The position numbers and the translations under genes are program-made. From Escherichia coli (GTDB lineage Bacteria > Pseudomonadota > Gammaproteobacteria > Enterobacterales > Enterobacteriaceae), in assembly GCA_025544715.1 (NCBI GenBank), contig GCA_025544715.1_4109.2: a stretch of 64,000 nucleotides of DNA. One strand, 5' to 3'. The notes beneath the pieces are model-generated. The model was given only the letters and a program-made list of their open reading frames with translations. It was not told where the DNA came from and searched no databases. Position 1 is the first letter of the stretch; every line of letters starts with the position of its first letter. Shown piece by piece: positions 21,114-24,682 of the stretch.

Positions 21114-21653
21114 TTAACGTTCATCATCATGAATCTCACGATGACAATTAGCACAAACCATAATACATTTATCTAGTTCTATTTTGATTTTTTCAAAAGA
21201 ACGAGTTGAACCTTCTTGACTAATTGAAAAATCTTTCTGTGAAGGGTCAATATGGTGAAATTCTAATGCCGCAATGCATTTATTATAACCACACTTTTCG
21301 CAGCAACCACCTTTGTATTCAACAGCTAATATTTTTAATTTTCTACGTCTATCCGAAACACGTTGACTGTCACATTTTGAGCATTTCCATTTACCTTGTG
21401 AATTTAAATCATAATTCTTATTGTGTATTTCACAAAATCTCATTTCATTCGTTGACTTTGGTCGTTTAACACCATGTGATTCAATAATGTTATTGATTCT
21501 TGATCTATTACACTTATATTCTTTGGCTAAACCGTAAATTGGCATACCATTTAAATACTTCTGAATTATTTCATTCTCTGGTAATTTAGAACTTTTCGCC
21601 TTTATTGCTTCGGCTATTTTGTTGCGTGTTTCTTCTGATTGTTTTCGTCCCAT
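21114..21653 (-). CDS. HNH homing endonuclease (179 aa)
   Basis: N-terminal GRKQSEETRNKIAEA (NUMOD-like) and C-terminal LEFHHIDPSQKD...CANCHREIH; adjacent to tRNA cluster. Confidence 0.6.
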   Translation of the reverse strand: MGRKQSEETRNKIAEAIKAKSSKLPENEIIQKYLNGMPIYGLAKEYKCNRSRINNIIESHGVKRPKSTNEMRFCEIHNKNYDLNSQGKWKCSKCDSQRVSDRRRKLKILAVEYKGGCCEKCGYNKCIAALEFHHIDPSQKDFSISQEGSTRSFEKIKIELDKCIMVCANCHREIHDDER

Positions 21654-21897: not shown

Positions 21898-22391
<494 letters not shown>

Positions 22392-22753
22392 ATCACCAAC
22401 TTTAATTAAAAAAATGGATGGTGACGCGTTTAAACGCCGCTGTTAATTCAGCTTTATAACCACCCGTTTTAACTTACCTTTCGGCTACCTTGACGTGGGG
22501 CGTACAGGCTACTAAAAGCAACTTCTGTAAACATATTTCCACGCCTTACCATTTTAAATAAAAGTCCATCCGGTTTTCCAGTTTGGTGAAGGACTGTCAC
22601 CTCTAGTTTCAACCTGCTAGTCAAGTAATAATTGCCTATCGTCCAATTATCAAACCCGTCTAGGTTAACATTCACCACTTCCTAGAGTACCAGAGATCTT
22701 GTTCTGGATAGCATCGACGTAACTTACACCATATACGTCTGATTGTGGAATTC
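22392..22753 (-). ncRNA. candidate promoter-driven structured RNA or long leader (~360 nt)
   Basis: ORF-free, visibly GC-richer stretch immediately downstream of a consensus promoter. Confidence 0.25.
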
Positions 22754-22778
22754 ATTATATCAGTACTGAACTATTTAG

Positions 22779-22782
<4 letters not shown>
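22754..22782 (-). promoter_or_regulatory. sigma70-consensus promoter (TTGACT-17-TATAAT), cassette copy 2
   Basis: near-identical to the cassette at 21995-22023. Confidence 0.55.
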
Positions 22783-23191
<409 letters not shown>

Positions 23192-23204: not shown

Positions 23205-23365
<161 letters not shown>

Positions 23366-23369
<4 letters not shown>

Positions 23370-23526
23370 ATTCGTACCAGTAGTTCAATTAAGTACATTT
23401 CATATGCTGGATCGTTGATAAGTTTATCATACAGATGTGGCTCTGAAATGAATTCCCAATGATACTCTAACCACTTACCAAAACCTGCATATCTAAAATT
23501 AATGTCATTCATCCATTCTTCATGTG

Positions 23527-23530
<4 letters not shown>
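23366..23530 (-). CDS. MTHEEW small-protein family member (54 aa)
   Basis: hand translation MTHEEWMNDINFRYAGFGKWLEYHWEFISEPHLYDKLINDPAYEMYLIELLVRI. Confidence 0.45.
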
Positions 23531-23790
<260 letters not shown>

Positions 23791-24162: not shown

Positions 24163-24345
24163 TTAGTTTTGATTATTTGATTTTCTAAATGCCAGTTCGC
24201 ATATAAACCAAGGTTTTCTGGTATCCAAAACATATGACCTGAAAAGATTTTCATCTCTTAAGATATCATAATGTACCTGACGAATGCCATTTCCAAAGCA
24301 ATCATGTTCTTTATGCTGTTTGGACATCCATTCTTCGTGTGTCAT
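24163..24345 (-). CDS. MTHEEW small-protein family member (60 aa)
   Basis: track ORF 24163-24363 trimmed to the internal MTHEEWMSKQHKEHDCFGNGIR start. Confidence 0.4.
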   Translation of the reverse strand: MTHEEWMSKQHKEHDCFGNGIRQVHYDILRDENLFRSYVLDTRKPWFICELAFRKSNNQN

Positions 24346-24346
24346 T

Positions 24347-24682
<336 letters not shown>

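What the first reader, a model, noticed from the sequence alone, without database searches (positions are those of the whole stretch)
22392..22753. Promoter-driven ORF-free GC-richer segment: candidate small RNA or structured leader
A consensus promoter at 22754-22782 is followed by about 360 nt without a credible ORF (only a GTG-start 69-codon frame) and with visibly higher G+C than the surroundings. In AT-rich phages such islands are often structured RNAs; T4 carries small stable RNAs in its tRNA region.
Basis: partly seen in the sequence, partly recalled or inferred. Interest (0 to 1): 0.5.

Follow-up and report, generated by a model that had tools for sequence, protein, structure and literature searches.

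The report
Two unannotated structured RNAs beside phage tRNAs
The ORF-free, GC-richer stretch behind the promoter holds two separate structured non-coding RNA genes in a jumbo coliphage's tRNA region; one is a ~190-nt, triple-pseudoknotted RNA that recurs inside the tRNA clusters of unrelated phages, matches no Rfam family, and has no known function.

Summary
A near-consensus sigma-70 promoter on the minus strand (TTGACT-17-TATAAT, 22782..22754) is followed by about 360 nt with no conserved ORF. GC is 0.41 against a window mean of 0.33 (top 0.8% of 362-nt windows).

The stretch is two independent RNA modules, not one leader.

Module A (22751..22563, minus) is a ~190-nt RNA with seven hairpins and three pseudoknots. 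On 18 homologues, 92% of cells pair, against 24-42% when partners are slid. 29 of 53 pairs change on both sides. Homologues lie in the tRNA clusters of Asteriusvirus, Alcyoneusvirus, Bragavirus, Novosibvirus, a Stephanstirmvirinae phage and Aeromonas T4-like phages, on the tRNA strand and often 0-2 nt after a tRNA.

Module B (22550..22408, minus) ends in a conserved 50-nt three-way-junction module plus a U-tract. That module recurs after tRNAs elsewhere.

Neither module matches Rfam 15, tRNA/tmRNA finders, T4 rnaC/rnaD, E. coli genomes or 185,579 prokaryotic genomes. Some Asteriusviruses lack A, B or both, so they are accessory.

Best reading: stable, trans-acting RNAs matured with tRNAs, analogous to T4 species 1/2 RNAs and to GOLLD/ROOL. 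The target is unknown.

The parts
22754..22782 (-). Early sigma-70-type promoter: TTGACT, 17 nt with TG extension, TATAAT. The expected start is about 22747-22746, which is at the 5' pseudoknot strand of module A.
   Evidence: 11/12 match. One search shows a 30-nt identical copy at 22023..21995, whose predicted +1 coincides with the first base of tRNA-Ser. The start site is inferred, not measured.
22563..22751 (-). Module A: a ~190-nt structured non-coding RNA. Elements in order: 5' CCAC (22748..22745) pairing with the P4 loop (PK1); P2; variable hairpin P3; P4; P5; P6 whose loop pairs downstream (PK2); P7 whose loop pairs with the 3' tail GGACU at 22567..22563 (PK3); P8.
   Evidence: Covariance model R1 scores 214.6 bits at 22751..22559.
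22466..22550 (-). Module B, 5' part. It contains the P1 helix GGCGUGG/CCACGUC (22545..22539 with 22498..22492) enclosing two nested hairpins, then a GAAA-tetraloop hairpin (GCC-GAAA-GGU). The 5' domain is shared with Kuravirus phages.
   Evidence: Compensatory changes against Kuravirus XT32 were read by eye: 3 pairs compensated, 1 mismatch. Support is weaker than for module A.
22416..22465 (-). Module B, 3' module of 50 nt. It has a 7-bp closing stem, UAUAAA, the hairpin NCUG-AAUURA-CAGN', and a 16-nt variable hairpin.
   Evidence: Model R2 scores 74.9 bits. On 10 distinct copies 97.5% of cells pair, against 29-62% when slid. One search gives the parsing.
22408..22414 (-). U7 tract one base after the closing stem of the 3' module. 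It is the probable transcript end or terminator of the promoter-A-B unit.
   Evidence: Sequence. A U4-U7 tract follows within 1-3 nt in 8 of 10 distinct copies. The simple terminator scan did not call it. Termination is inferred.

Best explanation
The segment encodes two independent, horizontally mobile, non-coding RNA genes belonging to the phage's tRNA island. In this phage both are driven by one early promoter.

Module A is a compact ~190-nt RNA in which both ends are tucked into pseudoknots. In other phages it is co-transcribed with tRNAs and would be released by the enzymes that mature its tRNA neighbours. In this phage the promoter starts transcription at or next to its 5' end.

Module B is a ~135-nt RNA capped by a conserved 50-nt three-way-junction module and a U-tract, which probably forms and protects the 3' end.

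Shown here: conservation, RNA-level base-pair covariation on the tRNA strand, position in tRNA clusters, absence of coding potential, absence from bacterial genomes, and dispensability within the genus.

Inferred: they accumulate as stable RNAs and act in trans on a host component shared by Enterobacterales and Aeromonas. The argument is that near-identical copies work in unrelated phages that share no specific partner gene near them. The most likely mode is that of a protein-binding decoy or sponge, for example for an RNA- or tRNA-directed host nuclease or defence factor. I put that last step at about 0.3. The ncRNA-gene core I put at about 0.9.
For: Structure of A: on 18 homologues, 92.1% of 942 cells are standard pairs, against 24-42% when 3' partners are slid. 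29 of 53 pairs change on both sides, against 6-12 slid. The covariation score is 0.397 against at most 0.079. 0 of 500 shuffles reach the observed value for four of the five measures, and 2 of 500 for further pair types (the same pattern appears).

All three pseudoknots keep pairing through compensatory changes. PK1 shows CG:12 and GC:5. PK2 shows UA:13 and AU:5. PK3 shows UA/CG and GC/AU/GU/UA. Several pairs have 3-5 pair types.

Many G-U pairs (for example GU:14 and UG:17) place the fold on the tRNA-sense strand as RNA.

Context: A starts 0-2 nt after a same-strand tRNA in 11 of 18 loci, and the next tRNA follows within 1-9 nt in 6. One metagenomic contig has two copies flanking a tRNA-Arg.

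Transfer: A is 85-91% identical between the jumbo Asteriusvirus and T4-like or T5-like Proteus, Morganella and Shigella phages, with no match to those phages outside the module.

B 3' module: 97.5% of cells paired, four closing-stem variants, all 7/7 paired.

Modularity: JNE01 has promoter plus B only. EJP2 has A without B. K64-1 has its own promoter between A and B.

Non-coding. Not host-derived. Dispensable: G17 keeps only 37 nt of A.
Against: No expression or processing data exist for any member, so stability and trans action are inferred.

Single-sequence folding energy is not unusual: z = -0.76 for A and -1.34 for B. That calculation ignores pseudoknots.

The homologues fall into few clades. 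Isolated column pairs can therefore mimic covariation, as one search shows with many spurious pairs, and the shuffle control is optimistic. The slid-partner control and stacked multi-type pairs carry the argument.

P8 and the outer part of P2 are not kept in the Aeromonas clade, and P3 is undercounted because of register shifts.

In this window the predicted start site may remove one or two bases of PK1.

No promoter separates B from the next ORF, so the RNAs are also physically a 5' UTR here.

Full-length B is known from only two genera, and its 5' domain rests on few compensatory changes.
Confidence: 0.75

Rival explanations
1. The segment is a structured 5' leader that regulates, in cis, the downstream 123-aa ORF (22391..22020). 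It would act as a riboswitch or attenuator.
For: The segment lies between the promoter and that ORF. No strong promoter is called between B and the ORF. B ends with a stem plus U-tract that could act as an attenuator. JNE01 keeps B directly upstream of the same ORF.
Against: A and B occur apart from this ORF. A is followed by tRNA-Asp, -Ser, -Thr, -Glu or -Arg, or by another RNA module. In K64-1, B is followed by an unrelated 47-aa ORF. The 3' module of B also stands alone after tRNAs. G17 expresses a downstream ORF with A and B deleted. No riboswitch family matches.
Confidence: 0.1
2. Module A is a ribozyme, or the catalytic RNA of a small RNP. It could be a processing activity tied to tRNA maturation, or a self-cleaving or ligating RNA. 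It would not be a passive binder.
For: About 60 invariant positions are concentrated in loops and junctions. There are three pseudoknots in ~190 nt, an architecture typical of ribozymes such as glmS, HDV-like ribozymes, the RNase P catalytic domain or group I introns. It abuts tRNAs.
Against: No similarity to any ribozyme family in Rfam, even at E up to 10. No conserved cleavage-site logic was found. Cutting at its own 5' end would leave a damaged tRNA 3' end. Nothing here tests catalysis.
Confidence: 0.1
3. The segment is a highly divergent member of a known RNA family that the models miss. Candidates are tmRNA (the whole segment is ~360 nt), RNase P RNA, a group I intron, 6S RNA, GOLLD/ROOL, or T4 rnaC/rnaD.
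For: The size of the whole segment resembles tmRNA or RNase P RNA. The tRNA-island context resembles GOLLD/ROOL and T4 rnaC/rnaD.
Against: Rfam 15 gives no match at the gathering threshold or at E up to 10. ARAGORN finds no tmRNA. The segment is two separable modules. Model R1 does not hit the T4 rnaC/rnaD locus. There is no T-arm or acceptor-like end as in rnaC.
Confidence: 0.04
4. The segment is protein-coding (the 69-codon GTG frame or another small ORF), or it is a DNA-level element such as a recombination or homing site or an origin.
For: Some GenBank records annotate hypothetical proteins over it. A homing-endonuclease-like ORF is nearby. The promoter cassettes look recombinogenic, as the JNE01 junction suggests.
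Against: The frame is not conserved and has no family match. Substitutions preserve base pairs rather than codons. G-U pairs make the fold strand-specific, which fits RNA and not duplex DNA. There are no tandem repeats.
Confidence: 0.02

Closest known systems
Bacteriophage T4 species 1 and species 2 stable RNAs (rnaC, rnaD)
   Same: Both are small stable RNAs of unknown function encoded inside a phage tRNA cluster, on the tRNA strand, immediately next to tRNA genes. From my own knowledge of the T4 literature, they are matured from tRNA-type transcripts. Both families are accessory.
   Different: There is no sequence or structural similarity. R1 does not hit the T4 locus. rnaC has a tRNA-like T-arm and acceptor end, and modules A and B do not. 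A is longer (~190 nt against 119-139 nt) and has three pseudoknots.
ROOL and GOLLD large ornate RNAs
   Same: Both are complex, multi-pseudoknot RNAs of unknown function encoded by phages and prophages, often near tRNA islands, with no known protein partner (10.1101/2024.12.08.627333).
   Different: ROOL and GOLLD are roughly 3-4 times larger (GOLLD often exceeds 800 nt; ROOL ~580 nt from my own knowledge), occur mainly in other bacterial groups, and assemble into multimeric cages. A and B do not match their Rfam models. Whether A oligomerises is untested.
Phage-encoded RNA decoys such as pseudo-ToxI of phage phiTE
   Same: This is a precedent, from my own knowledge of Blower et al. 2012, for a phage-borne pseudoknotted RNA that neutralises a host abortive-infection ribonuclease. 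It shows the kind of accessory, horizontally acquired trans-acting role proposed here.
   Different: ToxI-type RNAs are tandem 34-36-nt repeats. There are no tandem repeats here and no Rfam match. No target is known for A or B, so the resemblance is a functional hypothesis only.
Exoribonuclease-resistant viral RNAs (flavivirus xrRNA-type folds)
   Same: Both share a topology in which the 5' end pairs into an internal loop and an apical loop pairs with the 3' tail. In xrRNAs, from my own knowledge, this gives nuclease resistance. A has PK1 at its 5' end and PK3 at its 3' tail.
   Different: xrRNAs are ~70 nt, occur in eukaryotic RNA viruses and block Xrn1. There is no sequence relation. The resemblance is topological and untested.

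Membership tests
Any Rfam 15 family (including tmRNA, RNase P, group I intron, 6S, riboswitches, self-cleaving ribozymes, ToxI) | A covariance-model score at or above the family's gathering threshold | tested here: not met
   (whole window) found only five tRNAs. One search (22300-22850, E up to 10) gave only two noise hits, at 13.3 and 12.5 bits against cut-offs of 40 and 33. One search gave the same result for homologous loci.
tRNA / tmRNA | A cloverleaf or tRNA-like domain with acceptor stem and T-arm, plus a tag reading frame for tmRNA | tested here: not met
   ARAGORN finds six tRNAs elsewhere in the window and nothing at 22392-22753. No T-arm sequence is present in A or B.
T4 rnaC / rnaD stable RNAs | Sequence or structure homology to T4 species 1 or species 2 RNA | tested here: not met
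   The T4 locus L081 was included in the R1 search and gave no hit. By eye, the sequences share no motif with A or B.
T4 rnaC / rnaD stable RNAs | Encoded within a phage tRNA gene cluster, on the same strand, abutting tRNAs | tested here: met
   The upstream tRNA ends 0-2 nt before A in 11 of 18 loci.
T4 rnaC / rnaD stable RNAs | Accumulates as a discrete stable RNA processed by tRNA-maturation enzymes | not testable with these tools
   No RNA-seq or northern data are available. This is inferred from position only.
GOLLD / ROOL | A match to the RF01998 or RF03087 consensus, and a size of ~580-800+ nt | tested here: not met
   No match. A is ~190 nt and B is ~135 nt.
Type III toxin-antitoxin antitoxin RNA (ToxI-like) | Tandem array of ~34-36-nt repeats next to an endoribonuclease toxin gene | tested here: not met
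   No tandem repeats. No toxin-like neighbour was found in Pfam or PHROGs.
Cis-regulatory leader / riboswitch | A constant association with one downstream gene or gene class | tested here: not met
   Downstream neighbours differ among homologues: various tRNAs, another RNA module, unrelated ORFs.
Intrinsic terminator (for the 3' end of module B) | A GC-rich stem immediately followed by a U-tract | tested here: inconclusive
   A 7-bp closing stem is followed by A+U7 in the window. A U4-U7 tract lies within 1-3 nt in 8 of 10 distinct copies. However, the stem encloses a conserved three-way junction, two lineages lack the U-tract, and the simple scan does not call it.

The most novel reading that the evidence does not exclude
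Module A is the founding member of a previously undescribed class of compact, triple-pseudoknotted phage RNAs that travel with tRNA islands between unrelated phage families. It would have an activity of its own. One possibility is a new ribozyme. Another is an RNA-only inhibitor or sponge of a host tRNA-directed immune nuclease or signalling molecule. The recurrent 50-nt module on B would be a new, portable 3'-end capping or termination element.
Probability: 0.3. Interest if true: 0.85.

Novelty: new variant of a known kind. Interest (0 to 1): 0.62.

Why it matters
Phage tRNA islands are now seen as counter-defence loci, yet the non-tRNA RNAs in them (T4 species 1 and 2, GOLLD, ROOL) have had no assigned function for decades.

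Module A adds a small, well-defined and experimentally tractable example in E. coli, Klebsiella, Proteus and Aeromonas phages. It is about 190 nt, has a testable fold, has natural deletion variants within one genus, and shows clear evidence of transfer between phage families. That makes the question of what tRNA-island RNAs do directly approachable by knock-out, complementation and pull-down in model hosts.

The finding also corrects annotations. Several GenBank records call hypothetical proteins over these RNAs.

Tried and rejected
- Rfam at gathering and at permissive thresholds on the window, the segment and homologous loci found nothing but tRNAs.
- ARAGORN found no tRNA or tmRNA in the segment.
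- RNAalifold on a first seven-sequence alignment gave a partly wrong long-range pairing that conflicted with the clearly covarying variable hairpin. I replaced it with a hand-derived structure and tested that.
- Single-sequence MFE z-scores were uninformative.
- IMG/VR pattern scans returned only the known isolates, one Klyazma-like Citrovirus contig (L105) carrying the 50-nt module, and chance matches in coding DNA (checked).
- The genome-contig scan and the E. coli genome search found nothing, so a host origin is rejected.
- An all-against-all column covariation screen for extra tertiary pairs was dominated by the two-clade phylogeny and is unreliable. It supported only a one-pair extension of P4 (columns 69-97).
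- I considered and dropped several ideas: pairing of GUUUG with CAAAC, of the P2 loop with the P5 loop, an anti-Shine-Dalgarno decoy (the GAGGU is largely inside helix P7), a tRNA-like CCA end on B (not conserved), and a resemblance of GAGG..AGUCC to RNase P CR-I (no supporting model hit).
- An apparent second copy of B's 3' module at window ~55170 was a chance match in coding sequence.
- Literature searches found no description of these RNAs.

Full report
**What is there**

The window is from an Asteriusvirus-type jumbo coliphage. The 551 nt around the finding are 97-99% identical to 121Q, PBECO4 and relatives. Genes here run on the minus strand.

It reads TTGACT, 17 nt with a TG extension, then TATAAT, at 22782..22754, with 11 of 12 matches. 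A 30-nt identical copy sits at 22023..21995, placed so that its predicted start is the first base of tRNA-Ser at 21988. A third, near-identical copy lies at 23191..23164.

Downstream of the promoter, the only sense-strand ORF is the GTG-start 69-codon frame. GC is 0.406, against 0.332 for the window and 0.30 for both flanking ORFs. That places it in the top 0.8% of 362-nt windows. The segment lies among six phage tRNA genes.

**It is two modules, not one**

A blastn search against 50,697 phage records splits the segment.

- The whole segment is found at ~97-99% identity in most Asteriusviruses, and at 80-81% in the Klebsiella jumbo phages RaK2 and K64-1, where it is unannotated.
- The first ~188 nt alone occur at 85-91% identity in unrelated phages: T4-like Bragavirus (Proteus PM2 and Pm5461, Shigella SdyM_006), Morganella vB_Mm5 and T5-like Novosibvirus (Proteus phage 1 and 2).
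- More distant copies of that first part occur in a Stephanstirmvirinae Klebsiella phage and in Aeromonas T4-like phages.
- The second ~165 nt alone occur in Asteriusvirus JNE01, and part of them occurs in Kuravirus podophages.
- EJP2 has the first part without the second.
- K64-1 has an extra promoter between the two parts.
- In JNE01 the promoter is fused directly to the second part.

I call the two parts module A (22751..22563) and module B (22550..22408).

**Context of module A**

In every annotated relative, A lies in an unannotated gap inside a tRNA gene cluster, on the tRNA strand.

| Phage | Upstream | Downstream |
|---|---|---|
| PM2, SdyM_006 | tRNA-Gly | tRNA-Asp |
| Proteus phage 1 | tRNA-Leu | tRNA-Ser |
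| KP13-16 | tRNA-Leu | tRNA-Ser |
| Aeromonas phages | tRNA-Pro | tRNA-Thr |

Over 18 loci, the model's first base is 0-2 nt after the end of an upstream tRNA in 11. The next tRNA starts 1-9 nt after the model's end in 6. One metagenomic contig carries two copies flanking a tRNA-Arg.

This is the situation of T4's species 1 and 2 RNAs (rnaC, rnaD). However, A shows no similarity to them.

**Structure of module A**

I derived a structure from the alignment of 14 and then 18 homologues.

- The 5' CCAC pairs with the loop of hairpin P4 (PK1).
- Hairpin P2 has a conserved GGYGU loop.
- Hairpin P3 varies in length.
- Hairpin P4 follows.
- Hairpin P5 has a conserved GACGAUA loop.
- Hairpin P6 has a loop (CUAG) that pairs with a downstream CUAG (PK2, an H-type pseudoknot).
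- Hairpin P7 has a loop that pairs with the 3' tail (PK3).
- P8 is a short hairpin.

Results on 18 sequences:

| Measure | Observed | Partners slid 1-3 columns |
|---|---|---|
| Cells forming standard pairs (of 942) | 92.1% | 24-42% |
| Pairs changed on both sides (of 53) | 29 | 6-12 |
| Covariation score | 0.397 | at most 0.079 |

Zero of 500 shuffles reach the observed value for four of the five measures, and 2 of 500 for further pair types. The 14-sequence alignment gave the same picture.

Each pseudoknot keeps pairing through compensatory change:

- PK1 is CCAC/GUGG in enteric phages, GCAC/GUGC in Aeromonas phages and CCUCA/UGAGG in KP13-16.
- PK2 is CUAG/CUAG, CAAG/CUUG or CUGG/CCAG.
- PK3 is AGUCC/GGACU, ACCC/GGGU, GCCC/GGGC, UAUCC/GGAUA, UCCC/GGGA or AUUCC/GGAAU.

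Frequent G-U pairs place the fold on the tRNA-sense strand, as RNA.

There are caveats. The sequences form few clades, so isolated covarying columns are unreliable. P8 and the outer part of P2 are not kept in Aeromonas phages. P3 is undercounted because its register shifts. Single-sequence folding energies are unremarkable, but that calculation ignores pseudoknots.

**Module B**

The last 50 nt of B (22465..22416) form a small three-way junction: a 7-bp closing stem, UAUAAA, the hairpin NCUG-AAUURA-CAGN', and a 16-nt hairpin whose sequence varies.

Ten distinct copies all keep 7/7 closing-stem pairs, using four stem variants. 97.5% of cells are paired, against 29-62% when slid.

A model of this module (R2) finds one copy in the window. 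It finds further copies on a different RNA upstream of A in K64-1 and RaK2. It also finds copies standing alone right after tRNA-Ser in K64-1 and EJP2, after tRNA-Arg in a metagenomic contig, and in the Citrovirus Klyazma.

In most copies a U4-U7 tract follows within 1-3 nt. In K64-1 a new promoter comes next. I therefore read the module as a conserved 3'-end or terminator module. In the window it is followed by A+U7 (22414..22408).

The 5' part of B has a helix GGCGUGG/CCACGUC enclosing two nested hairpins, then a GAAA-tetraloop hairpin. It is shared with Kuravirus XT32, with three compensated pairs and one mismatch. This support is thinner than for A.

**Not coding, not host-derived, not a known family**

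- The 69-codon frame spans the A/B junction and is not kept in homologues. It matches nothing in Pfam or PHROGs.
- There are no tandem repeats.
- Rfam 15 gives no match at the gathering threshold or at E up to 10, here or in homologous loci.
- There is no match in 5,426 complete E. coli genomes.
- A specific pattern for A is absent from 185,579 prokaryotic species genomes.
- Metagenomes gave only three phage-like contigs, and IMG/VR gave only the known isolates for module A.
- Literature searches found no description. A 2026 Asteriusvirus genome paper lists only tRNAs.

**How it most likely works**

Shown here: two conserved RNA folds on the tRNA strand, embedded in tRNA islands, exchanged between unrelated phage families, and dispensable within Asteriusvirus. 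G17 keeps only 37 nt of A, JNE01 lacks A, and EJP2 lacks B.

Inferred:

- The RNAs would be released from tRNA-type transcripts by the host enzymes that mature the neighbouring tRNAs.
- In this phage they are started by the promoter at about 22747.
- Both ends of A are locked in pseudoknots, and B has its 3' cap. This would make them long-lived.
- Because nearly identical copies serve phages that share no obvious partner gene next to them, the target is probably a host component common to Enterobacterales and Aeromonas.

I favour a protein-binding decoy or sponge role linked to the counter-defence function now ascribed to phage tRNA islands, at about 0.3. A ribozyme is the main alternative activity, at about 0.1.

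A cis-acting leader for the downstream 123-aa ORF is unlikely, because the downstream neighbours differ in other phages.

**Comparison and novelty**

The closest known things are T4 rnaC and rnaD, which share the genomic situation but not the fold. Next are ROOL and GOLLD, which are phage RNAs near tRNA islands with many pseudoknots and unknown function, but are several times larger and do not match.

A and B fail the sequence and structure tests for all of these, so they are new families of a known kind: non-tRNA RNAs of phage tRNA islands.

Interest is moderate to high for RNA and phage specialists. Module A is a compact, well-supported, unannotated fold in tractable model phages, but there is no functional evidence yet.

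Noticed in passing
L002:2840-2994 (Klebsiella phage K64-1; same in RaK2, L091): A third unannotated RNA-like element (B-prime) lies between tRNA-Gly and module A. Its 3' end is the same 50-nt module as in B. Its 5' part has blastn relatives in T4-like, T5-like, Erwinia and even Cellulophaga phages. It has no Rfam match and is absent from the window.
   Followed up: partly
L002:4594-4643; L093:1758-1807; L096:706-755; L095:702-751: The 50-nt three-way-junction module also stands alone directly after tRNA genes, and once in a Citrovirus podophage. It is usually followed by a U-tract, and in K64-1 by a fresh promoter. It looks like a portable structured 3'-end or terminator element.
   Followed up: partly
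window 22754-22782, 21995-22023, 23164-23191 (minus): There are three copies of one early-promoter cassette, two of them identical over 30 nt. The one at 22023..21995 is placed so that the predicted start is the first base of tRNA-Ser. The JNE01 junction suggests that recombination between such cassettes deletes or shuffles the modules.
   Followed up: partly
window 23205-23691 and 24163-24363 (minus): Three tandem, overlapping 54-aa ORFs and a fourth 66-aa ORF all contain the motif MTHEEW (it opens the three 54-aa ORFs and lies a few residues into the 66-aa one). They are a locally amplified small-protein family between the tRNA genes.
   Followed up: no
window 21114-21653 (minus): An HNH homing-endonuclease-like ORF (PHROG HNH endonuclease, E 3e-33; weak NUMOD3 match) abuts the tRNA-Asn/Met/Ser trio. 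SdyM_006 has a segD-like endonuclease next to the tRNA that precedes module A. This fits endonuclease-driven exchange of tRNA-island cargo.
   Followed up: no
L094:2100-2607 (metagenomic contig ERZ808232 NODE-1756): Two diverged copies of module A flank a tRNA-Arg(ACG). The downstream copy starts at the base after the tRNA's 3' end.
   Followed up: yes
L007:1480-1780 (Kuravirus vB-EcoP-XT32): A long ORF-poor region shares B's 5' domain. A neighbouring ~75-nt piece is 88-98% conserved in many Gamaleyavirus-type podophages and was once annotated 'tRNA-Undet'. ARAGORN finds no tRNA there.
   Followed up: no
L120:600-637 (Asteriusvirus G17; same in phAPEC6, Sharanji): Only the first 37 nt of module A (the P2 hairpin) remain, joined directly to the ribosome-binding site of a different ORF. 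This is a natural deletion of A and B.
   Followed up: yes
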